DNA of 59,792 nt, counting the filler, from Jimgerdemannia flammicorona (taxonomy: Eukaryota), in assembly GCA_003990765.1 (NCBI GenBank). It is 3 parts of 3 records of this genome, joined end to end, with 100 filler letters (N's around TTAATTAATTAA, not from the genome) between each part and the next. Parts side by side here need not be neighbours in the genome. Positions count along the whole stretch, not along the records: positions 1 to 19,865 come from RBNJ01001825.1; positions 19,966 to 39,829 come from RBNJ01001826.1; 1 more part is not named here. One strand, given 5' to 3'. Within the stretch, counting starts at the first letter, position 1, and the number at the start of each line of letters is the position of its first letter. Both the position numbers and the translations under genes were made by a program. Under the pieces are notes generated by a model. It made no database searches and was not told the origin of the DNA. It worked only from the letters and a program-made list of their open reading frames with translations. Positions 6,209 through 38,787 of the stretch are shown here, in pieces.

Positions 6209-6380
6209 GGGTGGTAAGAGGAGCAGGGAAAGGAACAACAATTGGATGGTGAGATTGAAAGAAAATGGTGTGTCGGTGCGGGTGGCTTGGCGGATTTACG
6301 AGACGTCGACTCCTCGCCAGCCACGTCACAGAAATCCCCATTTCTCTCTCCCCAACTCACCCACCCTCCAGTGGCCCACA
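6209..6380. promoter_or_regulatory. Bidirectional promoter with GCCACGTCA (= TGACGTGGC) bZIP/UPRE-like element at 6320-6328
   Basis: 172 bp between divergent ATGs (6208 minus, 6381 plus); the motif is read directly from the sequence. Confidence 0.6.
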
Positions 6381-9720: not shown

Positions 9721-10276
9721 AGTGGCATGCTATGTTTTGGGAAAGGGAGTGGATTAGTGACTGTCAGATAGAATGTTAGGTGGACTATGTTGAGTTTCCG
9801 TTTTGCTTTTTGTTTTTTAATAATAAAAAAAATAAAAAAAAATAAAAAAAAAATGTGTAGAAATGTTGTCAGCTGAAATCTTAAGGCTTTTCCGAGAACG
9901 TTTTGTAAGTTTTATTTTATTTTATTTTATTTTTGATCTTTTTTGCTATTTGTGAATGTTGTGGGGTATGAACTTGTCGGGAAGAAGATTGGAAAATGGG
10001 TGGGGCAATGTGCAAAAGGCAGCTATGAATATAGTGTAATGGTGACCCCAGAATGATGACATCAGCACAGGAGACAGCCTTTCCTTGCAAGCCACCAGAT
10101 CGGAACACAAGAAGATCATATAGTATATGAGATGAGCAATGATGACCAACTGTGAGTTATTGTAACCACAGTACAAGTATCCTGAAGAATATAAAAGAAG
10201 GATCAAGGAACCACAGTAGCAGCAACCAATAAGAACTACCAATCTCAAATTAGCTCAAAGACTTACCATAAATGAA

Positions 10277-11086
10277 ATGTCTACTGCCCACCAAACCTCA
10301 AGGTCAAAGAATCACCAAGGTATCTCAGTTGAAGAAAGGATGTTCCAAGATATCAGAAGAGCCATGAGAACCTGCTCAAGAAGGACTCCTAGTGTCAACC
10401 TGAGTACTGCAGACCCCTATCACTTTATTCTCTACCACCATAAAATGGAAATAAGGATCACTATTGCTACTGAATATCTTCAAATGTGGCAGGAGTATGA
10501 AATAGGAAACCTTCTCTGCCAGGAGTTCCCACAGGCCAGCCCTTAAGAGCTATAAGATGGCACTCCCATAGATATATGAGATAAGAATGGCTAAGAAGAT
10601 TCATCAGATCTTCAGGCATACACTATAGTTGATCCCCAACTTGGAGTATGTTAGAGTCTCAGACTTCAGAGATCTGTCATCCCACTATATCAATATACTA
10701 GAAGCCAGGGTGGCCACAGAAGCTCAGTCCACTATCACCCTCAATAGTGATAAAGTAGAAGACTTCTGGCATCCTATCCTTCAGGACAACCCGACCAATT
10801 CCTACAAGGATTGATCTCAGTATTCCAAGGCCCAAGCATCTAGGTTAGACCTTCCCAAGACCTCACATTTGTCCCTTATTTTGTAGAAGAGAACCTCATA
10901 GACTGGAGAGCCCCAGACCTCCTCCTCACTACCAAATGTGATGATATCATCAGTGATGACGTCATCCCACATGACATCAAAGTATGTAAAACATATAACC
11001 TATATGATGAATTCATGAATCTCATCTCCTTCAGTGATGATAATGATGATGATGAAGCCCCCATGGTCCTGAACTTTCTACTCTAA
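10277..11086 (+). pseudogene. LTR-encoded accessory ORF (~270 codons), 5' LTR copy
   Basis: MSTAHQ...LQMWQEYEIGNLL...AKKIHQIF...VRVSDFRDLS...acidic tail...VLNFLL*. Nonsense transitions plus two compensating indels. Present in all five lineage-A LTRs in the window. Confidence 0.75.
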
Positions 11087-11098
11087 GTTCTTTATTAT

Positions 11099-11220
11099 AC
11101 TGAATAATACCAGCACTGGTATTTTGATGTAACACTGGATAATTCCAGCACTAGCATTCTGAGGTAATGCGAAATTATTCCAGCACTGGTATTCTGATGT
11201 GACACTGAATTATACCAGTA
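11099..11220. repeat. U3 array of ~3.5 x 35-bp units each centred on palindrome AATACCAG-CA-CTGGTATT
   Basis: Units start at 11099, 11134, 11169 and 11204 (partial). The same array is at ~18330, ~28363, ~42085-42208 and ~44830-44968. TATAAATA follows at 11326-33. Confidence 0.9.
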
Positions 11221-13771
11221 TCCTTAACCTGTACAACCATTAGTGCTGACCCTGGAACTTAGTAGTTTTAGTTATTGGAATTTATATTTAGCTTTATATC
11301 TTAGCAACTATTGAATTATATTTTGTATAAATACTCCTCTTATTTCCTCTGAAATAAAGTCAGTCTTCTCAGTACAATACATACAATCTCTTGCAAGCAA
11401 TCTAAGAGATAATAAGATAGTTAAAGATAAGAAGTTTGAGGACTATAAGATCTTAGGAAGGCACTCCAATAAGAACTTGCTTATAACAAAACTTGAGTTA
11501 GTCTAAGAGATATATCTTGAAGAGAATCTGGCATATTTGAAGAACTTAGCAACCACTATATAATAACTTAGTGCCCATTGGCTGGTGATTCAAGATGAAT
11601 TCCTCACTTTCAAGCTGAAAAATGAACAACCCCTACAATAACTACTCTGACTACAAGAGTCACCTCTGCAAGAATTCAAGATAAGATGGAAATGCATCCC
11701 CCCACATTCTATAGATATACTACTGAAGAGTCAATCCTGATCTTCATTAAAGACTTTGAACAATTTGCCGCTGTATGAGTCCTTAGTGTGGATGCTCAAT
11801 TGGCCCTTCTACAAGTCAGTCTCAGAGGACCTGTCAGAGATAAGTTCAATGCAGCCACCATTGCTGATGCTAATGCAGCCAAACTTGCCAACATGAAGGC
11901 CTTTCTCAGAACAACATATTATATCAAAGAGATCAAGCAAGCTCTCAAGGATCAACTCAATACTATCTGCCAGGGACTTAGTGAAGATCCCAACTCATTC
12001 TATATCTGAATCTACCACCAGATTGTCTTGGCTGACTATAATGACTGCCTCAAGGAACAAATAGCAGATTCAACTTTCCTCAAAGGAGTTCACCCTGAAA
12101 TTTCCCTAGCAATCTGGTCTACTCTAGCTACACTGACCCTTGATCAGAAAGTGGTCTTTGCACAGAGATATTGAACTGCCAGATACCCTGCCGAACACTC
12201 AATGGAGAAAATAACTGGCATCAAGATGGAGCCATCAAAGCCAACTAGTATCTTATCTGCCCCAGTTGTAAATAGACAACCAACCCCACCTACCCCCAAG
12301 ATAGCCAAAACTGACCCAGTGGAAGAACTTACCAAGCAGTTTGCTGAGATGACTGCACACCTTAGTGATGTTGTTAGAGAAGTCTGAAGTACCAACAGGA
12401 GACCAGTGCAGAGATTTGCAGCTGCTATAGAAGAATACAATATCACATACTTTAGATGTAGAGAAGAAGGCCACTATGCAAAGAATTGCATGACTGAAAC
12501 AAGACACAAAGCCCAACTAAGCAATGCTAGCAGAACTAGAGAACAAACCAATGCAGTAGTCATCGAGGAGATTAGTGACACTGATGATGAAGAATACTAT
12601 GAGGAGCTTGAATTCTTTCCTGCTACTGAAGATACCAGAACCCAGTCCAAGCCCTATGATAAGAAGAGCAACAGTAAGCTAGTTGGAAGACCAAAGAAGA
12701 CCCCAGCTGTCACTATTTAAAGCAAGACCCAACCTAAGGAGATTGATCAAGACATAGAGTTAGATGAAGCTGCCTACCAAATTATTGAAGGCACTACTCC
12801 AGTCTCAGGAGAAAGTGAAAGCAAGAAGGAACAGAAGCTATATAAGACCAAGATCCATCAGTATGATATCTACAAGGACCTCAAGGAACAGAAGGTCAAT
12901 GCTACTTTTGGACAACTAGCTGAAGTCCCTGCCTTCAGACAGCAGTTGAGAGTAGGACTTGCAACTACTGCCAATAATTAAGAGTACAAGATTGTAGAAG
13001 CTCACAATGCACAGGAAGAATCTGAGAACTCAGGTGAAGAATCCGAAGACCAGTGCAAGACATCAGCCTATATCCTATATCAGATTGAAGACTGTATCTT
13101 TGATACCATCATTGATACCAGTGCTGGAGGATATCTCATAAGCAAGAAGGCAATTGACCACCTAGGCTGAGATATTGAAGAGTCCACCAAGATGGTCTAT
13201 GTTACAGTAGATGGTATATGAGCTACCCCCCTTGGAAAAATCCAAGAAGTCCCCATCAAGATAGGAGGAGCTACTATCCCAGTAGATATGATTGTTACAA
13301 GTGCCACCAACTATGATATCCTCATTGGCAACCAATGGCTTCACAAGGCCAAGGCCATCATTGATCTCAATGCTCAGAAGATGCAGATCAACTATAGAGG
13401 AAGAAAGGTATGAGTCTCTATCAATGTCCACAAAGGAGTTCTACCAGACATGAAGGAAGGAGATGAAGAAGACACAGAGGTCTTCATGCACTCAGTGAAC
13501 AAGAACAAGAACAAGACACCCAAGCTCACAGATGAGCAGTGGTACAACAAGATCATCGATGGCTATGTCTCTTAAGGAAGATGCCCCCATAGTACTAGGA
13601 TATACTGCTCTGAACACCTGAATGACTACTGGTCCTGTATCAGTAAAGTCAGGAAAATCTGTCAATAGAAACATAAGCAAAAAGCTACCAAAACAAAAAG
13701 GAAAGCCAAAGAAGATGACCAGCCCCCAGAGCTCCAAGCTGACAGCAATGATGAGGAGAAACAAGAATCAG

Positions 13772-14193
13772 ACATCACCCTCAAGGTCAAGAAGTTTCAC
13801 CCCAAAGCTAAGATTCCAGAATATAAGACTGAAGGAGCTATAGAAATGGACCTTGCCAGCATTCAAGATGCTACCCTCAAACCACAGACCACCACCCTAC
13901 TTGGTACTGGAATTGGAGTCAAGCTACCAGAGAACCATGCCAGAATTATTAAGACTAGGAGCAGTCTGGCCAAAAGTAAAATCTCAGTTAAAGGAGGAGT
14001 AATTGACCCCAATTACACTGGTGAGATCTTCTTTATAGTCAGAAATCACAACCACACCACCCCCTTTGAAGTCAAGAAGCATGACAGGATTGACCAGATG
14101 CTGATCCACGAAATCAAGAAGCCCAAAATCATTGAAGCCATCAAACTCATCAAGACCAAGAGAGGAGAACAAGGCTTTGGATCTACTGGAAGA
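13772..14193 (+). CDS. dut: Trimeric dUTPase domain in pol, between PR and RT (lineage A)
   Basis: All five motifs: GAI(E/G)MDL, RSSL, GVIDP(N/D)YTGEI, DRI(D/G)QM, RGEQGFGSTG. Confidence 0.97.
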
Positions 14194-14449
14194 GGAGCCT
14201 ATGCCACTATTAAGATTACTGAATTCAAGCACAAGAAAGACAAGGACCAGAACAAGCACACATATACCATTGGAGAAAACTTTCCCCTGGAGGAACAACT
14301 TCTCAAAATCCTGCATCAGAATAAAGGAGTACTTGCTACAGACTTCAGGGATATCTATAATCAAGAACCCAAGTACTACCATGAAGTTGACACTGGTGAT
14401 ACTAAGCCTATCTACCAGAAAGTCAGACCCATACTGCCTGTCTACAGAG

Positions 14450-16946
14450 AGTGGCTATGAGCAGAGCTCAAGGAAATAGAAGAAGCCAGGATCATCAAGT
14501 AAGCTATCAGCCCCTGGGCCTCACCCATTATTCTTACTCTGAAGAAAGGAAGCAAGCCAGGAGAGTTTGTGCCAAGACTCTGCATCAACTACAGGAAGCT
14601 CAATGCTATTACTAAGAAGGATAGACAGCTCTTGCCAAATATTCAAGAAATCCTTACCACTCTTAGAAGTGAAGCCAAATACTACACCACCTTGGATCTG
14701 TTCTCAGGCTTCTATCAGATTGGCCTCACTCAAGATGCCAGTGAGAAATCAGCCTTCATCACACCTGACACCACCTATATCTACCTACAAATACCATTTA
14801 GAATATGCAATGTCCCAGTAAGTTTTCAGCAAATGATGAATAGAGTTTTCAGCAATGAGATTGGAAAGTGGCTCTTTGTCTATGTTGATGATGTGATCAT
14901 CTTCAGCAATACTGTACAGGAACATATCAATCACATACAGCTAGCCCTCAAGAAGCTCAAGGAGTATGGCCTCTACATTAAGCTCAAAAAATGCAAGTTT
15001 GCAGCTCAAGAAATCACCTACCTAGGACACCTCATCAACCAGACTGGAATCCACACAGATCCCATAAAGATCAAGGCTGTTGCAGCCTACCCAAGATCCA
15101 AAACAACTACAGAAGTCTATGCCTTCCTTGGACTGGCCAGCTACTATAGAAGATTCATCAAAGAATACTCCAACATTGCAGCACCTATCTACAAGCTACT
15201 GAAGAAGGAGACCAAATTTGAATGGACCAAAGAGTGCCAAGAAATCTTCAATGAACTCAAGACCAGGTTGACCCAAGCACCTATCCTCAGAAGACCAGAC
15301 TGGAACTTAGAATTCATCCTGCAGACAGACGTGAGTACTATAGGACTTGGAGCAGTCCTAGCTCAGAAGAAAGATAGATATGAATATGTCATCTTCTATA
15401 TAAGCCAAGGTACCTGCAGAGCAGAACAGAACTACAAGTCATACAAGCTCAAATACTTAGCAGTAGTTTGAGCAGTAGATAAGTTCCACTACTATCTAGC
15501 TGGGAAATACTTTACTATTCAAACAGACCACTCTGCTCTTACCTGACTATTCCACACTCTGAACCCCAAAGGAATATATGTCAGATGGATCTACAGGCTA
15601 CAAGAGTATGACTGTACTATCAAGCACCACTCAGGAAAGACCAATACCAATGCCAATATACTCTCAAGGATACCCCAAAACACCCCATCAAGACTATTCA
15701 ACATAAATAAGGAGCTATATAATAGATTAATCAGCTACCTTGGGCAGCGGAAGATGCTCAACCACCTTGAACCTTGGACAATCAACATCATTAACTGGAC
15801 TTGGAAACAGTTTGAACTAGACAACACTATACTCAGAAAAGGAGGAAAGCTAGTAATATCCGAACACAAGAAGTATCAAGTAATGAAGAAAGTATATGAG
15901 CAAGGATACTTAGGAGGAACCAATACATATGATAAGGTAAGAAGAATCATATGGTGGCTCAAGATGGAAGAAGACCTGCACAAATTTGTCAAAGGGTGTG
16001 ACAAGTACCAAAAACAGAAACAAGATCAGTAAGACCAGACACCTGGTTTATCAAGAATTAAGCCTATCCCCTTCCACCACATCACAATGGATATCATTGG
16101 ACCATTACCAGTAACACTATCAGGAAACCACTATATTATAGTTATTGTAGACCTCTTTACTAAATAGATAGAGGCAGGAGCATTATAAGAAGCCAATGCC
16201 CTCTCTATAGTCGACTTCCTGTACTGAGAAATCATCTGCCGCTACAAGACATCAAAGTAAATCACAACAGACCATGGAACAGAATTTATCAATGGATTCT
16301 ATGAGATAATATATCAGAAATACAAGATCTAGCACATCAAGACCCCACATACTATCCTCAAGGAAATGGACAGACAGAGAGAACCAATAAGACCCTTAAG
16401 AACATCCTAGCGAAGATCTCAGAGATATATGAGAATTGGGATAACTATCTCCCAACTGCCCTCTCTGTCCTATGAGATATATAGTCACAGAGCACACACT
16501 TTACTCCAAGAGAGCTGCTCTTCGGAGAAGAATCTGATGGAACCTCAGCCATGAATCTAGACCTAACTTAGAGATGGGTTGATGCAGAAATCCAGCAACT
16601 ATACCAAATCAGGAAGAAGGCTGAAGATTACATCACCAAGTCACAAGCACTGATAAGAAAGAATGCGGAAAAGAATCACAAGGCCCTAGAACCCATCCAA
16701 ATCAGAGAAAAAGTTCTACTGTATTGAAATATGGTAGAAGTCTCATGATTGCGAAAACTAGAGCTCAAATGGAAAGGACCCTTCTATATGCAAGATATCA
16801 AGAGAACCACCTTTTGGCTTAGAAAAATCTCAGGGACCATACTGCCTACTATAGTACATAGGAACAGACTCAAGAAGTACCACAAACCTATACAAGAGAA
16901 GTAAAATATGATGACCACCTATGAGGTTCTAGTCTGCGAATCATAA
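14450..16946 (+). pseudogene. RT-RNase H-integrase of lineage A
   Basis: SPWASP, RLCINYRKLN, LDLFSGFYQI, YVDD, FLGLASYYRRFI, TDHSAL, MDIIGPLP, TDHGTEF, KWKGPF; multiple nonsense transitions. Confidence 0.95.
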
Positions 16947-17501
16947 TAGTATATCCTGTGACCAGCAGGCTATCTGTCTGGACCATTCTCTAAGGGATAT
17001 GATACTGGCAACTACTCATCTATAAGACTTTCAAAGTCAGAGAAGTTCAAACCATCAACTAATTGGTCAAGATCAGAATCAGGCCCTTGCTCTATATAAA
17101 GAGAGTGATCCTTCACCATCATGCCAAAATACAAAGAGAAGATGCCAGTCCATAAATACTACTTTTCGACCCCTTGCCAGAGGTTATGGGATTAGCAAAT
17201 TTTTTAGGACTGGACCAATGAATAAGGATGCTCAGGAAGATCCTTATTCAGGAGGAAGATGTAATGGTGACTCCAGAATGATGATATCAGCACAGAAGAC
17301 AGCCTTTCCTTACAAGCCACTAGATCAGAACACAAGAAGATCATACAGCATATGAGATGAGTAATGATGACCAACTGTGAGTCATTGTAACCACAGTATA
17401 AGCATTCTGAAGAATATAAAAGAAGGATCAAGGAACCACAGTAGCAGTAACCAACAAGAACCACCAATCCCAAATTAGCTCAAAGACTTACCATAAATGA
17501 A

Positions 17502-18317
17502 ATGCCTGCTGCCTACTAAACCTCAAGATCAAGAAACCACCAAGATATCTCAGTTGAAGAAAGGATGTTCCAAGACATCAGAAGAGCCATGAGAACCTGC
17601 TCAAGAAGGACTCCTAGTGTCAACCTGAGTACTGCAGACCTCTATCACTTTATTCTCTACCACCATGAAATGGAAACAAGGATCACCATTGCTACTGAAT
17701 GCCTCCAAATGTAGTAGGAGTACGAAATAGGAAATCTCCTCTGCTGGGAGTTCCCACAGACCAGCCCTCAAGAGCTACAAGATGCCACTCCCATAGATAT
17801 ATGCGAGACAAGAATGGCCAAGAAGATCCATCAGATCTTTAGACATGCACCATGGTCAATCCCCAACTTAGAGTATGTTAGAGTCTCAGACTTCAGAGAT
17901 CTGTCATCCTGCCATATCAATGCACTAGAAGCCAGGGTGACCACAGAAGCTCAGTTCACTATCACCCTCAACAGTGATGAAGTAGAAGACTTCTGGCATC
18001 CTATCCTTCAGGACAACCCAGACCAATTCCTACAAAGATTGATCTCAGTATTCCAAGGCCCAAGCATCTAGGTTAGACCTCCCCAAGACCCCACATTTGT
18101 CCCTTATTTTGTAGAAGAGAACCTCATAGACTGGAGAGCCTCAGACCTCCTCCTTACCACCGAATGTAATGACATCATCGGCAATGATGTCATCCCACAT
18201 AATATCAAAGTATGCAAAATGTGCGACCTATATGATGAATTCGCAGATCTCATCTCCTTCAGTAATGATAATGATGATGATGATGAAGCCCCCATGGTCC
18301 TGAACTTTCTACTCTAA
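17502..18317 (+). pseudogene. LTR-encoded accessory ORF, 3' LTR copy (272 codons, no frameshift)
   Basis: Single frame from ATG 17502 to TAA 18315-17. Internal stops are TAA/TAG where other copies have CAA/CAG/TGG. Confidence 0.8.
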
Positions 18318-19125
18318 GTTCTTTATTATACTGAATAATGCCAGCACTGGTATTTTGATATAACACTGGATAATTTCAGCACTGGTATTCTGAGGTGACA
18401 TGAAATTGTTCTAGCACCGGTATTCTGATATGATACTAAATTATACCAGTATCCTTAACCTATACAACCATCAGTACCGACCTTAGAACTTAGTAGTTTT
18501 AGTTATTGGAATTTATATTTAGCTTTATATCTTAGCAATCATTGAATTATATTTTGTATAAATACTCCTCTTATTTCCTCTGAAATAAAGTCAGTCTTCT
18601 CAGTGTAATATACACAATCTCTTGCAAGTAATCTAAGAGATAACAAGACAGTTAAAGATAAGAAGTTTGAGGACTATAAGACCTTGGAAAGGTACTCCAA
18701 TAAGAACTTACTTATAATAAAACTTGAGTTAGTCTAAGAGATATACCTTGAAGAGAATCTGGCATATTTGAAGGACTCAGTGACTACTACATAACAATAG
18801 GAATGTTCAATATCTGAAGTGTGTGAATAGCCACTAACATTATTATCTCTGTTCTTTTATTCTTTTGTCATCATCTCCAACATCTCCTTTCTCACAGTAT
18901 TTGTCTTACTGCTATGATCTGTTATCTGATGGACTTTGGGCTTGAGCATGTGATGCAACTGACTATGCTTCTCTCAAGATTTACTGCATCAGACCAACTA
19001 TGCTAAGCATGGTAGCCTCTTCTAGACAAGATAGATATGAGACCACTAGTATTCTATAAATATATCTCTGATGAGTCAATTATTATCTTTCTTGATAATT
19101 TTGAGCAATATATTATAGTAAGGAC

Positions 19126-19384
19126 TAGTACTCTTAATGAATCAAATCAAAGGTCCAATTTGATTTAATTTAAATTGAATCAAAGATTAATTCAATTCAA
19201 TTTTAATTCAAACTCTATTTTTCAAAATGTAATAATTTGATGAAAATATGTCTAAATTTAACAATCTTTAGCTTATTAAATTTAAATATATTTTCATTGA
19301 GTTATTATATTTCAAAAAATAGGATTCAAATTGGACCCTCAATTTGATTTAATTCAAATTGATTTAATTTATTTAAGAGTACTA
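19126..19384. mobile_element. hAT-type MITE
   Basis: Termini TAGTACTCTTAA...TTAAGAGTACTA; 8-bp TSD GTAAGGAC/GTAAGAAC; internal inverted symmetry. Confidence 0.85.
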
Positions 19385-19865
19385 GTAAGAACTCTATTAT
19401 CTATATAGTAAGTAGCTCTTATATCATTCAGTCTCTAAGGACCTATCTCTTAGATAGTATATAGGAATATCTTTTTAGTAGTGATTTTTTCAAGTTTATA
19501 TTTTCTGTTTTTTTTTTTGATAAAATTTTACCCAAAGATAAAAAAAAATATAAAAAATCAATAGTTAAAATATTTTTATAATTTTCAGACTTATGAATTT
19601 TTAAAAATTTATAGCCAAATTTGGCTGCATTATTATCTAAGAGATAAAAGCTATATTCACAGTTATGAATTATATTAGAAATGATGATACTGCAATACAG
19701 TATGTTCCAAAACTGAACCAATGTTTTATTAAATTTTATATTTTAATTATTTAAATAAAAATACTCTAAATAAATATATTTTATATTATAATATATTATA
19801 GTTTTATATTAGAGATATTTAAAAATATTAAATTTATTATTTTAAAATTTTTATTTTATCTTTAA

Positions 19866-19965
19866 NNNNNNNNNNNNNNNNNNNNNNNNNNNNNNNNNNN
19901 NNNNNNNNNTTAATTAATTAANNNNNNNNNNNNNNNNNNNNNNNNNNNNNNNNNNNNNNNNNNNN
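19866..19965. other. Artificial contig linker N44-TTAATTAATTAA-N44
   Basis: Six-frame stop linker, identical to the one at 39830-39929. Confidence 0.98.
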
Positions 19966-19983
19966 AAAAAAAAAAAAAAAAAA

Positions 19984-22900
19984 GCATTGGTAGTGGTTGG
20001 TTCAGCAACCATAGTCTTGGTCAGGCAGTTAATGAATATGATAATAGTATTAGTACCAGATTGAGTTCATGGTAGTTGAGTTATAAAGTCTATGGTAATT
20101 TTCTTGAACTTCTTAGTAGGAATTGACAGTGGTTATAGCAAACCAGTAGGTACTTAGTTGGTAGACTTGTTGTACTAATATAGATTACAGCTAGCAATAT
20201 AGTTCTTGATTTCCTTGACTATGTTTGGTCAATGGTAGTAGTGTTGGATGTTCTTGACAGTCTTCTCAATTCTCAGATGATTAGCAAAAGGGGAGTTATA
20301 GTGTTCTTATAAACCCCTATAGTATAAGTTCATGTTTTCAGATAGATAGACTTAATCTTAATAATAGATTAAATTATTCTCAACAGTATATATCCTTAAG
20401 CTTATTTGAGAAAACTCTAGTAGCAACTGTATCTTCTTTATAAGCTTGCCTGATTTGGTTTAGGAATTCTGATGCCAAGGTGACCTATATAATTGTGATA
20501 AGATCTGGGCATCTTAATATGATATCTGGTACTATAAGTATCTTGCCAGGCTTATAGATGATCATTGAATTGAAGGTTTGAAGCTTGAGGTTCTACTTAG
20601 CTTATAGACATGACAGAGTAGGTTGGATATTGATATACTTGAGGAATTGATAATCAGTGATAATATCAAACTCAATATCTTTTAGATAGTATCACTAGTA
20701 GTCTAATATATATATTATTGCCAGTAGTTCCTTCTTGTAAGTGGCTAGCTTTTGTTTAGCTGGGGCCAACTTGTGAGATTCAAAAGCAATAGGACAATGT
20801 CCTTTATTATCATCTTGTGACAGAACTGCTCCAATGGCAAAATTCAATACATTAGTAGTAACTGTGAATTTTAGGCCTTGATCTGCATTATGTAGAACTA
20901 GAGTATGGATCAGACAGTTCTTGAGTTCTTGAAAGACTTGTTAATAGAAGAGGTCCCAGGTATAGAGTATATAGTGGTCTGAGTACAGGGCCTTCCTCAT
21001 GAGGTTAGTCAGTGGCTTGGTAATACCAGAGAAGTTTCTGACAAAGTAGTAGTAGTAGCCAGCTAGACTAAGAAAGAATCAGAGTTCTGTGAGGTTTGAT
21101 GGAATGAGACATTCTTCAATTACTTCTATCTTATATAGGTCTACTTGAATTTCTTATGTAGAGACAATGTGACCAAGGTATTCAACTTATTCTTTGAAGA
21201 ATTCACACTTCTTGAGCTTAGCATAAAGCTTGTATTTTTGCAGGATCTCCAGGACTATTTAAATATATTTAAGGTGTTCTTCTTTAGTTGTACTAAAGAT
21301 CAGGATGTTATCAAGATATATCAATAGGAAAATAAATAGTTGGTTCTTAAATATCTTGTTCATCAGAGTCTGGAATGTGGTGGGTGCATTGGTGAGACCA
21401 AATGCTAAGATCAGGAATTCATAGAGTCTAAAGGGAGTTATGAATGCAGTCTTGGAAATGTCTTCTGGCTTGATTCAGATCTGGTGGTATCCTGACATAA
21501 GGTCTAACTTGATAAAGTACTTGGCATTCTTAAGAGTATCAAAGATTTTGATCAATCAAGGATAGTGAATAGTAGTTCTTAACAGTGAATTTGTTGAGTG
21601 TATGGTAGTCTATATATATTCACAGAGTACTATCCTTCTTCTTGATGAATAAGACTAGTGAGCCATAAGGAGATTTGCTTGGCTAGATAGCTTCTCATAC
21701 AAGTAGTTCTTCTAGTTCCTTCTTGACTGCTTCAATTTTGAGTGGTGATATGCAGTATATATATTTCTTAGATAGTATAGCTCCTAGGGTCAGTTCGATT
21801 TCATGATCAACTTCTCATGTAGGCAGTAGATTAGGTAGCTTGTCTAGAAAGACATCCTTGAATTATTCTAGCAGTAACTTGATGCTTTCATTGACTAATA
21901 GTCTCTTGTCTTATTTCTTAGAGCAGATCATTATAATAAAGGTATGTATTGCCTTCTTAAGTACTTTCTTATACTATATAGCTGACAGTATTGCAATCTG
22001 GGTCTTGCTCATAGTCTTGTCTGTCTTGATCATAATATTGGCTCCAACTTGAAGTAAAGTGACTTCATTCTTACACCAATCAATATCTGGATTGTGTTTT
22101 ATAAGCCAGAGTTTTCCTAAGATTAGGTCATGATCTCCTAGTAGTGCAATCTCAAAGTCTACTTATTCCCAATATTTCTGGATCTTGATGGGTAGTTTGG
22201 TGGCAATTGATTCAATGGGGTGCAGAGTACTGTCTGCAGTAACTATATTATTGTTCTTGAGTGCAGGCTTGGTGAGAATCTTGAGGCTTTTGATAATATT
22301 TTGATTGATGAAGTTCTCTGTAGCTCTGCTGTCTATAAGTACTTAAACTTCTTTCCCTTTGACTAAGTCTTTGAAAATGAGCATAGCTTGAGCTCAATTT
22401 TCACTAAGGCTTGCTGCTTGATCAGTGCTACCAAAACCCTTTTGATCTTATTTGGTTTCAGGGAGTTCTTGGACTTCTGTAATCTTGAGTTGACTGGCTT
22501 TTTCTAGGATCATTTGTATGACTTGGTATTCTTCTTTAACTATATAGTCTTAATTCTTCTGGTTGACAAGCAAGACTTGAACTTGTCCTTGAAAGTCTGA
22601 GTTAATGATACTAGTATCTACATCTAAATGATGTTTGATACTGAGTCCTAATCATGGTACAATTCTAGTATAATGTCCTTCAGAGCATTGAACTACAATT
22701 CCAGTAGGTACTAGAGTACAGCCCTTGACTGGAATAGTGACTTGTTTGACTGAGTGTAGGTCAAGACCAATGGCTCTTTCTATTTGATATTGAGGGATTT
22801 GGGTCTTCAGATGAAGCTTCTTGACCTTGAGCTCAAGTTGACTGGTGATAGGATTGATAGATATATCCTTGAACAACATGGTGACTGGTCTTGAGAGTTT

Positions 22901-24362
22901 ACTAGTTTTCCTAGGACATTTGGTTGCAATGTGTCCTGTTTGGTGACAGAAGAAACAGGCTCCAGATTTCTTCAGGCAGTTCTTTTCTTCAGAGGTGAGC
23001 TTGGTGTTCTTTTTGTTCATGGTATCTAAGTCCATTGGTACTGGGCCAACTGTTTTTGGTTGGTTTCTGTAGTGGTTCTCAAAGTGGTTCTTCTTGTGGT
23101 ATTCTGATTCAAAGCAGTTGTCAAAGGTGATAATATCAAATCTATTGACAATTCTCATGGCTTCATCCAGAGTTTTGAGCTCTTCTAGCTCGACCTTGAC
23201 TTATGTATTTCCCTTCAGACCTCAGACATAGCAGTCTATCTTTTCATCCTCAGATACTGCTAGTAGCTCAAGTAGGATTGACAAGAATTGTATATTGTAG
23301 CTTTGCACAGACTTGAGTTGCTTAATGTTTGCTAGCTTGTCCCTGACTAGCTTGGTGGTATTAGCAGACTTGAACTGCTTGTAAAGGGCTCTCTTGAAAG
23401 CTTCTCAATCTCTGATTTATATATATAAGTGTACAGATGTAACCATTATATAATTGTACTACCAGATGGCTGTATTTTCTTAAAGGAGTGTAGTGGTAAA
23501 TTGGACTTACATATCATCTTCCATTCTTGTGAGTTTGAAGTATTAGTCTAATTGGAAGGTCTATATATCTGTAGATAGTCCCCCTCAATGGCTGTCAAAG
23601 GTATCTGGCTTAAGTGGCTTGAAACTGACTAGTGCTATAGCAGAATGTGATATACTTGTATTTTGTATTTTCTGCTATTCTAGTTGTATTTAAAGCTCTT
23701 AGATTTGGTGGGCCATAGTATTGATTATATCCTCTATTCTGAGTTGCTGTCTTTTTACTTCTTCTATAGCAGAGGGGTCTGGCTAATAGACTGACTCTTT
23801 GCAGCTCATTTCAGGTTTGTATGACTATTTGTAACTAGTTTCTGAATTTGTATGAGGTTTCTTAATAAGGTAAGGTATAATGATACTGCTGCTACCAAGT
23901 GTAACAGTTCTAGTTTTTTTAAGAGGAAGTAGCTAAATCTGGAAGTTCTAGTTGGCCTAAAGTAGCTTGAAGAGATACTTAAAGGTTCAAGTGTTCTTAA
24001 AGGATTTCTGGGAGAAAATATTCTGAGCTTTATTCAGATAGAGAATAAGGATATTTATATATAATCTGAAAAAAAGATCTAGAAGGATCTTAGAAAGAAA
24101 GAGAAATGCTAAGAAATAGGTTCTCAGCAAAGCTGACTAATACTATTCTACAATGTTCTGAAAGATTCCATAACTAGCTAAGATAAGATACTTGATACCA
24201 AGAAAAGATAAGAATATTCTAGTAGTGTCTAGGTGCTGAGAGAAGGTTCTAAGCAAGTAGAAGGTGGTAGAAAATAGTAGAATATTCAAGAAATGACAAG
24301 AAAAGACTAACTAAAAGATGTGAAAATATACTAAGACTAAATATAACTGTGAAATTGTTACA
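19984..24362 (-). mobile_element. Gypsy lineage D (5' LTR-gag-dUTPase-PR-RT-RH-IN, 3' end lost at contig edge)
   Basis: LTR 23900-24362 (TGTAAC...GTTACA); PBS TGGTAGCAGCAG (initiator-Met-like); PVPMDLD, CFFCHQTGHIATKC, dUTPase, LIDS(R/G)AT, YLD(N/D), IN IDFITQLP. Confidence 0.92.
22420..22835 (-). pseudogene. dut: dUTPase domain between NC zinc knuckle and protease (lineage D)
   Basis: LKVKKLH...AIGLDL...LVPTGI...IINSDFQGQV...QKGFGSTD, immediately followed by the PR motif LIDS. Confidence 0.9.
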
Positions 24363-25965
24363 ATGTACAAGTAAGAATAATTTAGCAATAAGAACCACAA
24401 GCTGCTGGATCTAGTAAAACTCTTACTATATTATCAAGACCAAGGAAGATAATCAAAGAAACCCTTGAACTTAATATTGGTGACCCCAGTACTATTATAG
24501 AACTACTACCAAGGACATCAAGCCTATTTAAGATCACAATAGATCCAACAATCATTTCATCAAAACTGCTAGTCTATAGGCTCACCCATCTTAGCAATAT
24601 TATAAAAAAATCAGCTCTAAACTATAACCAATACTCTATAACAATAGAGAGAGAAGAACCTCAACTATCTACCAAATAGACAACAGAAATAGCAGAATGA
24701 CATCAGTAGATAATAAGATAGTAGTATTGGCTGACCAAGTAGCCATACTCACTCAAGCTCTTTATCTCAGTATCAAAATAAATAAGCCCACAAAAGGCTT
24801 CTGCCTCACTCTATTTAAAGGCAAAGTAGACTAAGTAATAATATTTATAGATTAAGTCAATATCAACTATTGTATCAATAGTTAGAATAATAACCAAAGC
24901 CCAGATAATATTCTTGAAAACAATATGTACTATGAGATTGAAGGTCTCTATATAACTGTAAGCTCACAGATAGAAAAAGTCACTATATATTTTATAGAAA
25001 TAGCTGCTCAATAGTGACACAATCTACTAGTATATTATCTCACTTGAGAAATCTATATCAAAATTCTTGCAAGTGATGAAGATGACAATCACTCTAACTA
25101 TAAAGCCTATCTAGCTACTATGGAGCTAAAAGAGTTATTCATTCAGCAGTTTCATAGCTCTGTCTACATTACTGAAGCCAGAACCAAGCTCAAGAACCTA
25201 TGATTCTATAATAATAGAAAAGAGAACTTTAAAGCATTTTCTACAAGACTTAAAACTCTCCTGAATACTATAGAAGTAGAATACAGCTACCAAGAATAGA
25301 CAGTAAATGAAATCTGAGCTGTCTATTTCTTCAATGCCATCTCAGGATGAGTTATCAGAAAAATCTGTGAACAAGAACAACCTTATGATTATTCACATAA
25401 GCAATAGTATCTAGAATAAGCTATTATCTAAGTATATATTATCTTCATAGTCCAAAGACCAAGATTCAATAGAAATAACAATAGAGATAAATGATATCAA
25501 TTTGAGGAAAAGTATAAACTCTGAAATGAATCTACAAGATCACAAAGAGGATTTAAGAAACTGTCTGATAAGGAAATAAAAGAACTTATGAAGAAGATAG
25601 TATATTTTCATTGTAAAAAAAGAGGACACATATCTTGTGAATACTCTGACAAGAAGACCAATATTAATAAAGAACTATCCTCTTCATATACCATTACTAT
25701 GATAGGAGATAATCTTAAAGAAATCCTTAAGAAAATCAAGATCAAAATATTTCATATTATTATAAAGATCTCAGATAAGATACATGAATCTGATACTGAC
25801 TATAACCTCTACTCAAGTATGGAAGTAACCATCAAACTAGATAAGTAAGCAATCATTAGTACAGATATTAGAATGGAGGTCCCAAAAGGAACCTATATCT
25901 ACCTTATAGAAAAGAGTAGTCTAGTCAAGGAAAAAAGACTCTATATAGCCAGAAGAGTTATAAAA
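24363..25965 (+). mobile_element. Degraded LTR-retrotransposon lineage E: gag with CCHC followed directly by a dUTPase N-terminus
   Basis: (C/Y)FHCKKRGHISCE(C/Y) at ~25601, then KIKIFH...DYNLYS...IISTDIRMEVPKGTY...EKSSL; truncated by a LINE fragment. Confidence 0.7.
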
Positions 25966-26591: not shown

Positions 26592-27245
26592 TTACAGATA
26601 CTTAAAAACTATATTTCTAATAAGATATATAATTAGGACTACTATCTGATATATGTAGAATTTATATACAATAATGCTGTCCAATCATCTACTAGTCTTT
26701 CTCTTTCTGGCTACTTTATGATCTCAAGACCTCTATAAGTCTAGTCTCTTTTCAGAAAAATAGTTAAATATAAGTCTCTACTACTAAGAATCTCATAGAT
26801 AAGATAGATAAACTATTCAAAATTACAATACTAAACTTACAGAAAGCTCAATAATACTAAGCCAAATATACTGATAAGAAATACTATGATTAGTACTCTT
26901 AATAAATTGAATTAAATTGAATTTAACTCAAATTTAATTTGATTTAACTTTATTTGAATTAAAAAATCTCCAATTTGATTTGATTTGAATTGATTCAATT
27001 TATTTGAGAACACTAGTTATAGCTTATTTTTATATCTTTTTTCTATTTATTTTTTATCATTTTTTTAAATATTCTATAATATTTTAGTATTTATTAATTA
27101 CTTAATACTAAAACTTTACTATAATATTTTTATTTTAGCTAGTTTGTTAGTATTTCTTAGTTATAGTCTATTTTTATGTCTTTTTCTCTAGTCTTTTCTT
27201 ATCTTTTCTTAAATATTCTATAATGTTTTAGTATCTTCTAAATAC
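26592..27245 (+). mobile_element. Integrase-core remnant and D-related LTR remnant, interrupted by a MITE
   Basis: DYYLIYVEFIYNNAVQSSTSLS(P)F-like integrase text; TAGTCTTTTCTTATCTTTTCTTAAATATTCTA closely matches the reverse complement of LTR D. Confidence 0.55.
26891..27015. mobile_element. Short hAT-type MITE
   Basis: TAGTACTC...GAACACTA termini; flanking 8-mers ACTATGAT/GTTATAGC differ only by transitions. Confidence 0.6.
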
Positions 27246-30200
27246 TATAATAGTGACTCCAGAATGATGACATTAGTACAGAAGACAGCCTTTCCTTGCA
27301 AGCTACCAGATCAGAGCACAAGAAGATCATATGGTATACAAGATGAGCAATGATGACCAACTATGAGTTATTTGTGACCACAGTATGAGTATCTTGAGGA
27401 ATATAAAAGAAGGATCAAGGAATCGCAGTAGCAGCAACCAACAAGACCCATCAATCCCAAAATAGCTCAAAGACTTATTATAAACAAAATGTCTACTGCC
27501 TACTAAACCTCAAGATCAAGGAACCACCAAGATACCTCAGTCAAAGAAAGAATGTTCCAAAACATTAGAAGAGCTATGAGGACCTACTCAAGAAGGACTC
27601 CTAGTGTCAACCTGGGTACTGGTGACCCTTATCATTATATCCTCTACTGCTGTGAAATGGAAACAAGAATCACCATTGCCACCGAATGCCTCCAAATATG
27701 GCAGGAGTATGAAATAGAAAACCTCCTCTGCTAGAAGTTCCCACAGGCCAGCACTTAAGAGCTACAAGATACCACTCTCATAGATATGTATATGTGAAAT
27801 AAGGACAACTAAGAAGATCCACCAGATCTTCAGGTATGTACTATGGTCAATCCCCAACTTGGAGTATGTTAGAGTCTCAGATTTCAGAGATCTGTCATCC
27901 TGCTATATTAATGTACTAGAAGTCAGAGTGGCTACAGAAGCCCAGTCTACTATCACCCTCAATAGTGATGAAGTAGAAGACTTCTGGTACCCCATCCTCC
28001 AAGATAACCCAGACCAATTCCTGCAAGGATTGATCTCAGTATTCTAAGGCCCAAGTATCTGAGTTAGACCTCCCCAAGACCCCACATTTGTCCCCTATTT
28101 TGTAGAAGAGAACCTTATAGACTAGAGAGCTCCAGATCTCCTTGTTCCTGCTGCCACCAAACATGATGACATCATCAGTGATGACCTCATCCCACATGAC
28201 TTTGACATATGTGAAATATATGACAAAGTATATGAAGTATGCAAAATGTGTGACCTATATGACGAATTTGTAGACCTCATCTCCTTTGAAGATATCCTGA
28301 CCTCTGATGACAAGAATGAAGCTCTCATAGTCTTGAACATTCTACTCTAAGTCCCTTGTTATACTGGATAATGCCAGTACTGATATTCTGAGGTGATGCA
28401 GAATTGTTCCAGCACGGGTATTTTGATGTAACACTAAATAATACCAGCACTGGTATTCTGATGTGACACTGAATTATACAAGCATCCTGAACCTATACAA
28501 CCATCAATACCGACTCTAGAACTTAGTAGTTTTAGTTATTGGAATTTATATTTAGCTTTATATATTAGCAACCATTGAATTATATTTTATATAAATACCT
28601 CTCTTATTTTCTCTAAAATAAAGTCAGTTCCTCTCAGTACAATATATATACTTCCTTACAAGCAATTTAAAAGATACATAACAAGATAGTTTAAAGATAA
28701 GAAGTTTGAGGACTATAAGACCTTGAGAAGGCACTCCAATAAGAACTTGCTTATAACAAACTTGTAGTTAGTCTAAGAGATATACCTTAAAGAGAATCTG
28801 ATGTATTTAAAGGACTCAATGCCCACTATATGATAATGTATATAATATAGTTCTTCTCAGTGCAATACACACACTTCCTTGCAAGCAATCTAAGAGATAA
28901 CAAGATAGTTAAAGATAAGAAGTTTGAGGACTATAAGACCTTAGGAAGGTACTCCAATAAGAACTTGCTTATAACAAACTTAAGTTAGTCTAAGAGATAT
29001 ACTTTGAAGAGAATCTGGCATATTTGAAGGACTCAGTGACCACTACATGACAACTTGTTGCCCATTGGCTGGTGATTTAAGATGAATCCCTCACTTTCAA
29101 GCTGAAAAATGAACAACCTCCACAATAACTACCCTGACTACAAGAGTCACCCCTGCAAGAATTCAAGATAAGATTAGAAATGTGCCCCCCCATATTCTAT
29201 AGATATACTACTGAAGAGTCAATCCTGACTTTCATTGAAGACTTTGAACAATTCACTACCATACAAGCCCTTGGTGTGGATGCTCAATTGGCCCTTCTAC
29301 CAGTTAGCCTCAGAGGACCTGCTAGAGATAAGTTCAATATAGTCACTATTGCTGATACTGGTGCAGCCAAACTTGCCAACATGAAGGCCTTCCTCAGAAC
29401 AATATATTATACTGAAGAGATCAAGAAAGCTCTCAAGGATCAACTCAATACTATCTGCCAGGGACTTAGTAAAGATCCCAACTCATTCTATATCTGAATC
29501 TGCCACCAGATTATCTTAGCTAGCTATGATAACTGTCTCAAGGAACAAATAGCAGATTCAACTTTCCTCAAAGAAGTTCATCCTGAAATTGCCCTAACAA
29601 TCTGGTCTACCCCAGCTACACTGACCCTTGATCAGAAAGTAGTCTTTACATAGAGATATTAGACTACCAGACACCCTGCTGAACACTCAATGGAGAAAAT
29701 AACTGGCATCAAGATGGAGCCATCAAAGCCAACTAGTATCATATCCACCACAGTTGTAAACAGACAACCAACCCCACCTACCCCCAAGACAGCCAAAGCT
29801 GACCCAGTGGAGGAACTTGTTAAGCAGTTCACTGAGATGACTGCATATCTTGGTAATGTTATTAGAGAAGTCTGAAGTACTAACAGGAGACTAGTGCAGA
29901 GATTTGCAGCCACTACAGAAGAACATAATATCATATACTTCAGATGTAGAGAAGAAGGCCACTATGCAAAGAGTTGTATGACCGAAACAAGATACAAAGC
30001 ACAACTAAGTAATGCTAGCAGAACCAGAGAATAAACCAATGTTGTAGTCATCAAGGAGATTGGTGACACTGATGATAAAGAATACTATGAGGAGCTTGAA
30101 TTCTACCCTGCTACTGAAGGTATCAGAACCCAGTCCAAGCCCTATGACAAAAAGAGCAACAGCAAGCCAGTTGGAAGACCAAAGAAGATCCCAGCTGTTA

Positions 30201-32730: not shown

Positions 32731-33926
32731 GGACAGCTCCTTTCTTCGCTACCTTACTAGTTACAAGGTTTGGTAGGTGATCTTCCGAGTCCCCTTTCCC
32801 CTATTATTACCCCCTCTACCTCAGGTTGGTTTGCTGTGCCTGCAGGGGCATGGTGGGAGGAGGGCAATGGTGATGAGTTGCCCCTTTATTGGTGTTAGAT
32901 CAGTACTTCCTCCACTTTTTCGCAGATTCTGGTGCCTTCGGCTATGTCTGGGGTATACCCATTTTGGTGTGGCACCTTCTTCCTTTTGCTGTTGCCAACA
33001 AGGTGTTGTCTCAGTGTATCTCAGGCTATGTAGGGAGTTGGTCGATCTTGGGCATTAAGTGCTCAGTATAGGTTATCTGCAGGTCCTCAGTGCCTGTGGT
33101 GGGGCCCTCTGGCTTTGGTGAGCTTTCCGGCGAGCGCAGTTCTGGCATAGGTAACTGCTTTTTGGGTGTTGTCGGGATGGGAGGGGAGATGGCCGTCACA
33201 GATAGGAGGAAGGGTGATAATGGTGAACCAGTAGGGTGTCAGGCTGGGGACAGTCATCGAGGCTAGGGCAGATACTGCTTCAGTGGGGCCTTTTGATTGG
33301 TGCGGTGCAGTTAGGTGGTAGGTGTCACTATCGGCTTCTTTTGGCAGTCAGTGGGGTTGGGCCCCAGTCGTCAGGGGGGGTCAGGAGGCCCAAGGCTACC
33401 CATTTCAGGCATCTTGGCTACACTCAACTGGAACCGGGAGCTGACACAGCAATGTGATCGAGGCCCACAGGCTTGAGTAGTGGGGTATTGGGGGTTTCCT
33501 CCTGCCTTATGTATAAGTTCTTTACTTACCTCAACTGGGAGAACCAGGCCCTACCCACCATGTTGTGCTTTGATGAGAGTTTTTTCTTTGTCTGTCATTC
33601 TCTTTAGAGTGGTAGGGGCTATTCTATTCGACTCGGGCATGGTCTTGTACATATGTTGGGTTCTCGGGCATGTGCTTTCGGTCATTGACATATGGTTGGG
33701 TTTCCCCTGGTGGTTAGGGAGAGCATGTTGTGCAGAATGAGGTGTGGGCCTTTTTGGCCCTGCTGCGCCTGGCATAGTCGAGCTGCTGGACAATAGCTAG
33801 CCTAGGTTAATGGGGTGGCAGTGCTTAGTGGGTGGTGGGGGAGGGTTTTGGCCTATATAGTCTAGGTTCTCTTCTAATAAAAATCCGCAGGACATGAGTC
33901 TGTTAAAAAAAAAAAAAAAAAAAAAA
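32731..33926 (+). mobile_element. ~1.2-kb non-autonomous poly(A) retroposon, copy 1
   Basis: TSD GGAGTACCAAGAA/GAAGTACCAAGAA; AATAAA 33876-81; A-tail from 33905; splits lineage A pol. Confidence 0.93.
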
Positions 33927-34376
33927 GAAGTACCAAGAAACCTTCAATGAACTCAAGATCAGGTTGACCTAAGCACCTATCCTCAGAAGACCAGACTGGA
34001 ACCTAGAATTCATCCTGTAGACAGATGTGAGTACTATAGGACTTAGAGCAGGTCTAGCTCAGAAGAAAGATGGACATGAATATATCATCTCCTATACAAG
34101 CTGAGGTACCTATGGAGCAGAACAGAACTATAAGTCATATAAGCTTAAATGCTTAGCAGTAGTTTGGACAGTAGACAAGTTCCACTACTACCTAGCTGGG
34201 AAATACTTCATTATTCAAATAGACTATTCCACTCTTGCCTGACTATTCCACACTCTGAACCCTAAAGGAATATATACCAGATAGATCTACAGACTGCAAG
34301 AGTATGACTGCACTATCAAGCACTGCTCAGAAAAGACCAACACCAATACTGATGTACTCTCAAGGACACCCTGAAA

Positions 34377-38720: not shown

Positions 38721-38787
38721 TCCTCTGTCACCCCCTCTGTCAGTAATATACCACCACTAAATAAAGTATATGAGGAGTTTATTGTAT

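What the first reader, a model, noticed from the sequence alone, without database searches (positions are those of the whole stretch)
13772..25965. dUTPase in four LTR-retrotransposon lineages at two different positions
A (13772-14193, 31262-31680) and C (~53010-53425) have the order PR-spacer-dUTPase-RT. D (22420-22835) has NC-dUTPase-PR, as in betaretroviruses, and E (~25737-25960) also has dUTPase directly after NC. dUTPase is rare but reported in some fungal gypsy elements. Finding it in every gag-pol sampled from three unlinked contigs suggests host-specific pressure (high dUTP or uracil/deamination-based restriction) and repeated capture or module swapping. The coordinate range spans a contig gap and is not a physical cluster.
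Basis: partly seen in the sequence, partly recalled or inferred. Interest (0 to 1): 0.7.

Follow-up and report, generated by a model that had tools for sequence, protein, structure and literature searches.

The report
Two dUTPase-carrying gypsy retrotransposon clades
Almost every gypsy-type jumping gene sampled from this probably fungal genome carries an enzyme domain that should keep uracil out of its DNA copy, a known but uncommon accessory that here looks inherited within two old lineages rather than repeatedly captured under a host-specific pressure.

Summary
Observation confirmed. All five dUTPase domains sit at the stated places, in decayed Ty3/gypsy elements on three unlinked contigs. 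The trait is genome-wide: 59 of 60 elements chosen without regard to dUTPase carry it, and 0 of 16 copia loci do. The 'four lineages' fall into two RT groups, each with one layout. Clade I is non-chromo (A, C, G, H): PR-Cys finger-dUTPase-RT. Clade II is chromovirus (D, D', E, F1, F2): NC-dUTPase-(Cys finger)-PR. Relatives in public metagenome-type data have the same layouts, so position is inherited. Repeated capture is not shown: a single origin is not rejected against non-element enzymes, and no element dUTPase groups with host DUT1. One ancient exchange is suggested by a Cys/His finger 57% identical across clades. Host-specific pressure is unsupported: DUT1 and a uracil glycosylase match are present, and decay is strand-symmetric C-to-T, which dUTPase cannot prevent. 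dUTPase at several positions is already in print (Postia, Tuber, rotifers). This scan already noted the finger, frameshift and hypermutation elsewhere in this genome. New in passing: a degenerate dUTPase-like domain in the PR-RT linker of many non-chromo gypsy Pols.

The parts
10035..11566 (+). Element A, 5' LTR (begins TG; preceded by ATAG)
13075..13377 (+). A protease (gag capsid region at 11689-12108)
13537..13647 (+). A Cys/His finger module (C-x-H-x14-C-x2-C), between PR and dUTPase
13780..14190 (+). A dUTPase, stop-free, in frame with RT
14494..16341 (+). A RT (14494-15030), RNase H (15280-15636), integrase core (16072-16341); no chromodomain found
17260..18797 (+). A 3' LTR (TG...CA, followed by ATAG, a 4-bp target-site duplication); 134 transitions and 1 transversion against the 5' LTR over 1,532 positions
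19866..19965 (.). Artificial junction between contigs (second junction at 39830-39929)
19983..22378 (-). Element D: PR (22067-22378), RT (21169-21688), RNase H (20545-20898), integrase cut by the contig end
22421..22831 (-). D dUTPase, 3 stops, about 24 codons after the NC knuckle and in the same frame
22904..23632 (-). D gag: capsid (23189-23632) and CCHC knuckle (22904-22978)
   Evidence: Ty3_capsid and Retrotrans_gag in the sister family D'
24690..25653 (+). Element E: F-type gag remnant (start approximate) and NC knuckle (25582-25653)
25735..25964 (+). E dUTPase, N-terminal ~79 residues, then truncated; family layout NC-dUTPase-Cys-PR-RT
27242..28844 (+). Element A2, 5' LTR (approximate ends)
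30563..31135 (+). A2 protease (30563-30865) and Cys/His finger (31025-31135)
31268..31678 (+). A2 dUTPase, stop-free, all five motifs
31981..34323 (+). A2 RT (31981-32517) and RNase H (33976-34323), interrupted by a 1.2-kb poly(A)-tailed repeat at 32734-33929
50827..52706 (-). Element C: RT (52170-52706), RNase H (51560-51913), integrase (50827-51120)
53013..53420 (-). C dUTPase, 2 stops
53548..55486 (-). C Cys/His finger (53548-53655), protease (53822-54127), gag (55067-55486)

Best explanation
The genome's gypsy load comes from two old Ty3/gypsy lineages that already carried a dUTPase and then amplified to thousands of copies. Clade I (non-chromo: A, C, G, H) keeps the enzyme between PR and RT. 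Clade II (chromoviruses: D, D', E, F1, F2) keeps it between NC and PR. SHOWN: the layouts, their fit to the RT tree, conserved catalytic motifs and fold, and purifying selection while the elements were active. INFERRED from retroviral dUTPases: the domain is made as part of Gag-Pol, packaged in the particle, released by PR and trimerises. It hydrolyses dUTP so that RT does not put uracil into the cDNA, which the host uracil glycosylase would attack; this matters most in non-dividing cells where host DUT1 is low. INFERRED from sequence: the enzyme and a small Cys/His finger moved once, early, between the two clades, and D/D' later lost the finger. The C-to-T decay of the copies is a separate process acting after insertion.
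For: Position matches RT clade in all 46 own RT rows. Each clade has outside members with the same layout: clade I SH-aLRT 99 with P0171, P0172, P0228; clade II 96 with P0174, P0175, P0001. The two RT clades are not one group (p-AU 0.0003). Seventeen columns are invariant across 11 sequences from six families plus the host retrocopy, including the motif 2 Arg-Ser, motif 3 Asp, motif 4 Gln and motif 5 GFGS (motif numbering recalled). The F2 model matches human dUTPase at Z 20.9, rmsd 2.5, 123 aligned. Transversions at codon position 2 against four-fold sites: D vs D' 0.24 (RT 0.13, gag 0.32); A vs C 0.19 (RT 0.18). The finger is 27/47 identical between A and F2, with 0 of 1,000 shuffles reaching the score, against 41% for RT. 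Retroviral precedent for the role: PMC4531489.
Against: No activity, expression or particle data. The dUTPase tree (136 columns) is poorly resolved, and in three AU tests the constrained tree beat the free search, so those p-values are soft. With other element dUTPases in the set, a single origin was rejected (p-AU 0.0018). Clade II is not recovered cleanly in a 257-row FastTree: support 0.23, with five dUTPase-less proteins inside, one of them labelled Closterium; P0228 leaves clade I in that tree. A's finger is only weakly like that of G and H in its own clade (2 of 1,000 shuffles reach the score), so rate differences could mimic exchange. P0171 and P0172 were found with a query that included the dUTPase. 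The hosts of the outside relatives are unnamed.
Confidence: 0.62

Rival explanations
1. Host-driven filter: something in this fungal lineage (a high dUTP/dTTP ratio in the cells where transposition happens, or strong uracil excision) lets only dUTPase-bearing gypsy families amplify. The enzyme is inherited, but its near-universality reflects selection by the host.
For: 59 of 60. All 392 PR/RT/RH/IN fragments seen fall into nine dUTPase families (373 at 62% identity or more; 10 decayed pieces at 47-62%) or are copia integrases (9). A foreign fungal gypsy RNase H found nothing closer than 46%. The baseline survey of 25 fungi and over 150 families named dUTPase in only three Postia families (PMC2864245).
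Against: Copia elements, which also reverse-transcribe in particles, have open frames of up to 1,522 aa in this genome, and none of 16 loci carries dUTPase. Host DUT1 has four exons with canonical motifs. One UDG match is present. Rotifers show a similar prevalence (3 of 4 lineages, PMC5408684). Sampling was biased to best Pfam hits.
Confidence: 0.25
2. Repeated independent captures in this host's ancestry, for example from host DUT1 mRNA by template switching.
For: An intronless retrocopy of host DUT1 exists (C6287, 97-99% identical to C33350), so its mRNA does get reverse-transcribed. Starred branches force at least three origins of own-element dUTPases in the 91-row tree. D/D' lack the finger and score higher against cellular enzymes (best 124 bits against 86-96 for A and F1).
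Against: No element dUTPase groups with the host copy; D/D' plus host is borderline rejected (p-AU 0.052). Element enzymes are only 32-44% identical to one another and to the host copy when compared with A2. Each layout has outside relatives.
Confidence: 0.1
3. Counter-defence against cytosine deamination, or a non-catalytic (scaffolding or decoy) role.
For: Repeats are heavily C-to-T mutated (134 transitions to 1 transversion between A's LTRs). A degenerate dUTPase-like domain is conserved in G/H and many other Pols, and BIV keeps an inactive dUTPase (PMC4531489), so the fold can persist without catalysis.
Against: C>T and G>A rates are nearly equal in element sense in all five families tested (for example D 0.127 against 0.120, H 0.057 against 0.055), unlike one-strand editing of cDNA. 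All 13 changes in the DUT1 retrocopy are CpG transitions. dUTPase cannot repair U:G in DNA (established knowledge). Catalytic motifs are kept.
Confidence: 0.05

Closest known systems
PosPlaTy3-3, -4, -5 of Postia placenta; Phanerochaete elements; Tmt1 of Tuber melanosporum (PMC2864245: passages and section 5 read; the 2008 papers seen only as references)
   Same: Fungal gypsy elements with dUTPase at the amino terminus of Pol (as D and E) or between PR and RT (as A and C); several positions within one genome.
   Different: There it is a minority of families; here nine of nine families seen carry it, with thousands of copies and a Cys/His finger beside the enzyme.
Bdelloid rotifer Juno, Vesta and TelKA (PMC5408684: passages and section 3.1 read)
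   Same: Three of four lineages carry dUTPase between PR and RT, and Juno has an extra Zn knuckle after it. This is a precedent for near-universal carriage in one genome.
   Different: One position only and no chromodomain; here there are two positions. The finger here is C-x-H-x14-C-x2-C; its homology to the Juno knuckle was not tested.
Betaretroviral NC-dUTPase (MMTV p30, M-PMV) (PMC4531489: passages and part 1 of section 10 read)
   Same: dUTPase directly after NC and before PR (clade II).
   Different: The retroviral protein is trans-frame across gag-pro. Here NC, dUTPase, PR and RT are in one frame, integrase ends in a chromodomain, and whether NC stays fused is unknown.
'dUTPase-like' domain between PR and RT of giant planarian gypsy-like elements (PMC6431247, passage) and dUTPase in the PNMA-ancestor metavirus (PMC11011659, passages)
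   Same: dUTPase-related domains in animal Ty3/gypsy Pol; for the planarian elements the position between PR and RT is stated.
   Different: The passages read do not say whether these domains are catalytic. They may be instances of the degenerate linker domain found here (not tested).

Membership tests
Trimeric dUTPases (PF00692) | Pfam score above the cut-off | tested here: met
Trimeric dUTPases (PF00692) | Five conserved motifs, including the motif 3 Asp and the C-terminal Gly-rich arm | tested here: met
   Met in stop-free copies of A, D', F1, F2, G and H. Damaged in window copies C, D and E. Motif numbering is recalled.
Trimeric dUTPases (PF00692) | dUTPase beta fold | tested here: met
   F2 model, Z 20.9, rmsd 2.5, 123 aligned to 24ok_A
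Trimeric dUTPases (PF00692) | dUTP hydrolysis and trimer formation | not testable with these tools
   needs an assay
Ty3/gypsy LTR retrotransposons (Metaviridae) | Order PR-RT-RH-IN with gypsy-type RNase H | tested here: met
Ty3/gypsy LTR retrotransposons (Metaviridae) | Paired LTRs with TG...CA ends and a target-site duplication | tested here: met
   Element A only: 10035-11566 and 17260-18797, ATAG on both sides; the CA end is clear on the 3' LTR only. The other window copies are truncated.
Chromoviruses (clade II) | Chromodomain after integrase | tested here: met
   D, D', F1 and F2 loci and P0175. Window D is cut before it; E loci did not reach it.
Chromoviruses (clade II) | RT groups with chromovirus RTs | tested here: met
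   Inside a 99-supported group with plant and algal Pols that carry PF00385 or are labelled Ty3-gypsy. The named clade (Tcn1 or other) was not tested.
Chromoviruses (clade I) | Chromodomain after integrase | tested here: not met
   No chromodomain hit after the integrase of A or C in the window, or in G/H loci L037-L056, some of which end soon after integrase. RT lies outside the chromovirus group.
Betaretroviral NC-dUTPase | dUTPase directly after NC, before PR | tested here: met
Betaretroviral NC-dUTPase | Trans-frame gag-pro product | tested here: not met
   NC to dUTPase is in frame in all but one (L014) of the clade II copies listed
PosPlaTy3 / Tmt1 dUTPase elements | Shared descent of RT and dUTPase | not tested
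   The sequences were not retrieved; Additional files 1 and 2 of PMC2864245 (.DOC) were not seen.

The most novel reading that the evidence does not exclude
dUTPase capture is an ancient, recurring event in Ty3/gypsy Pol that is mostly invisible. A catalytically dead dUTPase-fold domain persists in the PR-RT linker of most non-chromo Pols sampled (68 of 88), and lineages under strong uracil pressure re-acquire a live enzyme beside it (G and H carry both in tandem). In this host lineage the pressure is strong enough that only gypsy families with a live dUTPase, passed between clades with a dedicated Cys/His finger, have amplified.
Probability: 0.25. Interest if true: 0.7.

Novelty: new variant of a known kind. 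Interest (0 to 1): 0.4.

Why it matters
The role and origin of dUTPase in LTR retrotransposons are stated as unclear in PMC2864245. This genome offers nine families, two positions, two expression modes (in frame with RT, or upstream of a -1 frameshift in G/H) and a dUTPase-less copia control in the same host. That makes the question testable by comparison. The headline claim of host-specific pressure and repeated capture is not borne out, which keeps interest moderate. If the degenerate linker domain is confirmed as a dUTPase relic, it would name an unannotated domain of many gypsy Pol proteins and push dUTPase capture deep into Ty3/gypsy history.

Tried and rejected
(1) Four independent lineages: rejected; two RT groups.
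(2) Capture from this host's DUT1: not supported.
(3) One-strand cDNA editing: rejected by the strand-symmetric spectrum.
(4) A viral donor for F2: the metagenome scan gave 78 of 80 loci with stand-alone dUTPases at 41-49% identity; the 12 put in the tree form their own group away from F2. The other two loci were gypsy elements (L157 RH-dUTPase-IN; L226).
(5) Frequency in related fungi: not obtainable; no relatives are held for G000 and outside proteins carry no taxon. One search returned mostly plant and algal Pols with inflated scores (0 of 120 with PF00692) and served only as outgroup. One search gave 2 hits.
(6) Cys finger identity: no Pfam family, no Atlas hit, only Z 4.0 or lower rows over that part of a two-domain model. 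This shows neither novelty nor absence.
(7) Three copies of the finger with zinc: no answer.
(8) Structure of the G/H linker domain: model failed, pLDDT 32; no fold search was run on it. Direct G/H-to-dUTPase profile match was weak (probability 6.5 and 0.5); the link is transitive through the linker family.
(10) No Rfam match in the window.
(11) The AU test 'all own elements plus host' did not finish.
(12) Deaminase inventory: not searched.
(13) Literature: no paper paired 'inactivated', 'degenerate', 'pseudo-' dUTPase or 'dUTPase-like domain' with 'retrotransposon'; 2 papers for 'dUTPase-like' + retrotransposon + gypsy. Subscription journals are not covered.
Full report
1. Observation. The window is three contigs joined by N spacers at 19866-19965 and 39830-39929. 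Pfam finds dUTPase in A, A2, C and D above its cut-off. A profile trained on elements adds the N-terminal 79 of 135 positions in E. The order is PR-Cys finger-dUTPase-RT in A, A2 and C; gag-NC-dUTPase-PR-RT in D; and gag-NC-dUTPase in E, whose match to relatives stops at about 25964. Element A has both LTRs and a 4-bp target-site duplication. All copies are decayed: CpG falls to 0-12 per 2 kb in most repeat bins, against 103-126 in the three gene-bearing bins. The host is probably a fungus. TMEM208's best Atlas cluster is commonest in Basidiomycota, and earlier notes of this scan place it in Endogonales, which I did not test.

2. Prevalence. The genome (231 Mb) gives 8,265 first-look candidates for dUTPase and 7,947 for gypsy RNase H. 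These are loose counts, not copy numbers. Twenty stretches that I picked by hand from contigs over 6 kb (191,552 bases) held 6 dUTPase hits, about one per 32 kb, which is of the same order. I counted elements whose protease start is linked to RT or to gag/NC, in sets not chosen by dUTPase: RNase H-chosen 17 of 17 (20 loci), arbitrary 5 of 5 (20 loci), chromodomain-chosen 14 of 15 (18 loci), gag-chosen 23 of 23 (30 loci). That is 59 of 60. Loci without such a linked protease were not counted. The sets are best Pfam hits dominated by a few families, and several gag-chosen loci overlap dUTPase-chosen ones (for example L113, L133, L135). The one miss (L086) is an F1 copy with a deletion from gag to PR. 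Of 392 PR/RT/RH/IN fragments in all own loci, 373 match one of nine families at 62% or more, 9 are copia integrases, and 10 are decayed pieces at 47-62%. None of 16 copia loci has a dUTPase inside the element; the two hits in L098 are the halves of a gypsy dUTPase split by the copia. For comparison, a survey of 25 fungi and over 150 families named dUTPase in three Postia families (PMC2864245, section 5; its .DOC supplements were not seen and bear on this).

3. Two clades, fixed layouts. On RT, families A/C, G and H form clade I (PR-finger-dUTPase-RT, no chromodomain found). D, D', F1 and F2 form clade II (NC-dUTPase-PR, chromodomain). E joins clade II by its F-type gag, its layout and its dUTPase, which groups with F2 on a long branch. 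With outside proteins, clade I (SH-aLRT 99) includes P0171, P0172 and P0228, and clade II (96) includes P0174, P0175 and P0001; all carry dUTPase, in the clade's position where the protein reaches that far. Holding the two clades together on RT is rejected (p-AU 0.0003). Against this: in a 257-row FastTree, clade I holds (0.96, without P0228), but clade II has support 0.23 and takes in five dUTPase-less proteins. P0001, P0005 and P0054 are 91-97% like own families and may come from close relatives of the host. Among the 150 best hits of a dUTPase-finger-PR profile over 1.8 billion proteins, 15 have dUTPase before PR, 16 after PR, 4 are dUTPase-finger pieces, 1 is NC-dUTPase, 42 have several dUTPase domains and 72 show one dUTPase alone. 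Two further outside elements have it between RNase H and integrase (P0181, L157). Both layouts are therefore widespread outside this genome.

4. Origin of the enzyme. Host DUT1 is a four-exon gene on C33350, and an intronless retrocopy lies on C6287. No element dUTPase groups with the host copy. The tree has only 136 columns. With other element dUTPases present, one origin for clades I+II was rejected (p-AU 0.0018) while each clade alone was not (0.12, 0.12; long rows C and E left out). With only non-element outgroups, one origin was not rejected (0.65), and there the free search missed better trees. The number of captures is unresolved: one or two is enough, and more is not shown.

5. The Cys/His finger. 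A module of about 40 residues (C-x-H-x14-C-x2-C) lies between PR and dUTPase in both clades, so it precedes the enzyme in clade I and follows it in F1, F2 and E; D and D' lack it. A and F2 share 27 of 47 residues, and A and F1 21 of 40 (0 of 1,000 shuffles), against 41% and 38% for RT. A against G or H, in its own clade, is weak (2 of 1,000 shuffles). P0172 (clade I) and P0175 (clade II) both have it, so any exchange is old. I read this as one early transfer.

6. Function. Catalytic motifs are kept across families, the fold is that of dUTPase, and replacement transversions are suppressed about as much as in gag or RT. The domain was therefore under selection while the elements were active. From retroviruses (PMC4531489), the likely role is to lower dUTP at the site of reverse transcription, mainly in non-dividing cells. 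In A, D', F1 and F2 it is in frame with RT. In G and H, RT is in the -1 frame behind a GGGAAAY site (4 of 6 G and 12 of 13 H copies), so the enzyme would be made in excess over RT. Activity, processing and expression were not tested.

7. Host pressure. The host has DUT1, one UDG match and four DNA methylase matches. Decay is strand-symmetric and ranks CpG far above CpA, CpC and CpT in five families. A's LTRs differ by 134 transitions and 1 transversion. This is damage after insertion, which a dUTPase cannot prevent. Copia elements have long open frames here without the enzyme. A softer host filter on gypsy families cannot be excluded without genomes of relatives.

8. A side result. The ~100 residues after the dUTPase in G/H match a domain found in the PR-RT linker of 68 of 88 dUTPase-less Pols and 1 of 92 (hhalign 96.4%). 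That domain matches stand-alone dUTPases (96.1%, E 3e-9, 84 columns, 12% identity), while six control profiles score below 0.3%. The six nearest sisters of clade I did not score for it. Pfam does not annotate it in three proteins scanned, and the structure prediction failed. Searches found no paper describing it as degenerate, though PMC6431247 and PMC11011659 mention dUTPase-like or dUTPase domains in animal elements (passages only).

9. Known and new. dUTPase at the Pol amino terminus, between PR and RT, and at the C-terminus is described for Postia, with Phanerochaete and Tuber cited (PMC2864245). Rotifers have it in three of four lineages (PMC5408684). Entomophthora muscae is enriched for PF00692 with retroviral domains (10.1101/2023.09.13.557621, passage). 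PMC2774666 mentions dUTPase in various fungal chromoviruses (passage). This scan has already noted the finger, the frameshift, the split integrase, the LTR genes and the hypermutation on other pieces of this genome. What this report adds is the census with a copia control, the two-clade resolution with outside relatives, and the linker relic. Verdict: real, a new variant of a known kind, interest 0.4.

Noticed in passing
G/H loci, e.g. L047:3055-3474(+), L046:3226-3698(-); P0193, P0187, P0212: Degenerate dUTPase-like domain in the PR-RT linker, present in 68 of 88 dUTPase-less non-chromo Pols and in tandem behind the intact-looking dUTPase in G and H (hhalign 96%).
   Followed up: partly
L037-L056, dUTPase-RT junction: Conserved GGGAAAY slippery site with RT in the -1 frame, placing the frameshift after PR and dUTPase (4 of 6 G, 12 of 13 H copies).
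   Followed up: partly
L001:3590-4216(-) = C6287; parent L077 = C33350: Processed retrocopy of host DUT1; all 13 differences counted are CpG transitions.
   Followed up: yes
window 10035-11566 vs 17260-18797: LTR pair differs by 134 transitions and 1 transversion; extreme C-to-T decay of repeats, noted before in this genome.
   Followed up: partly
window 17718-18068(+), 42224-42751(-), 45266-45568(-): Conserved ORF of no Pfam family inside the A-family LTR, with a 35-bp tandem array nearby in each LTR.
   Followed up: no
window ~15700 (A), ~51480 (C); L021, L036: RNase H-integrase junction: an ATGAATAA-type overlap in A/C-family relatives, with integrase in another frame in C and L021; window copy A reads in frame and differs by a single-base indel.
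   Followed up: partly
L098 (C2081): A copia element inserted inside a gypsy dUTPase domain.
   Followed up: partly
G spacer, e.g. L056 between PR and dUTPase: Extra Cys clusters in the long PR-dUTPase spacers of G and H, one resembling half of a fungal Zn2Cys6 motif (resemblance recalled; no Pfam hit in an H spacer).
   Followed up: no
window 32734-33929, 34655-35847, 38781-39828, 48638-49855: Four copies of a ~1.2-kb poly(A)-tailed repeat, probably the 3' end of a non-LTR element; one interrupts A2.
   Followed up: no
window 37733-38673: 9-bp tandem array of about 106 copies.
   Followed up: no
window 5666-6208(-), 6120-8640(+): Divergent host genes: TMEM208/SND2 and an ERGIC (Erv41/46-type) gene.
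   Followed up: partly
P0172 and P0175: A clade I and a clade II protein, both with dUTPase and finger, list the same longest-contig length (28,665), so the two clades may also co-occur in another genome.
   Followed up: no
P0003-P0140: 42 of 150 top hits are proteins with two or more tandem dUTPase domains.
   Followed up: no
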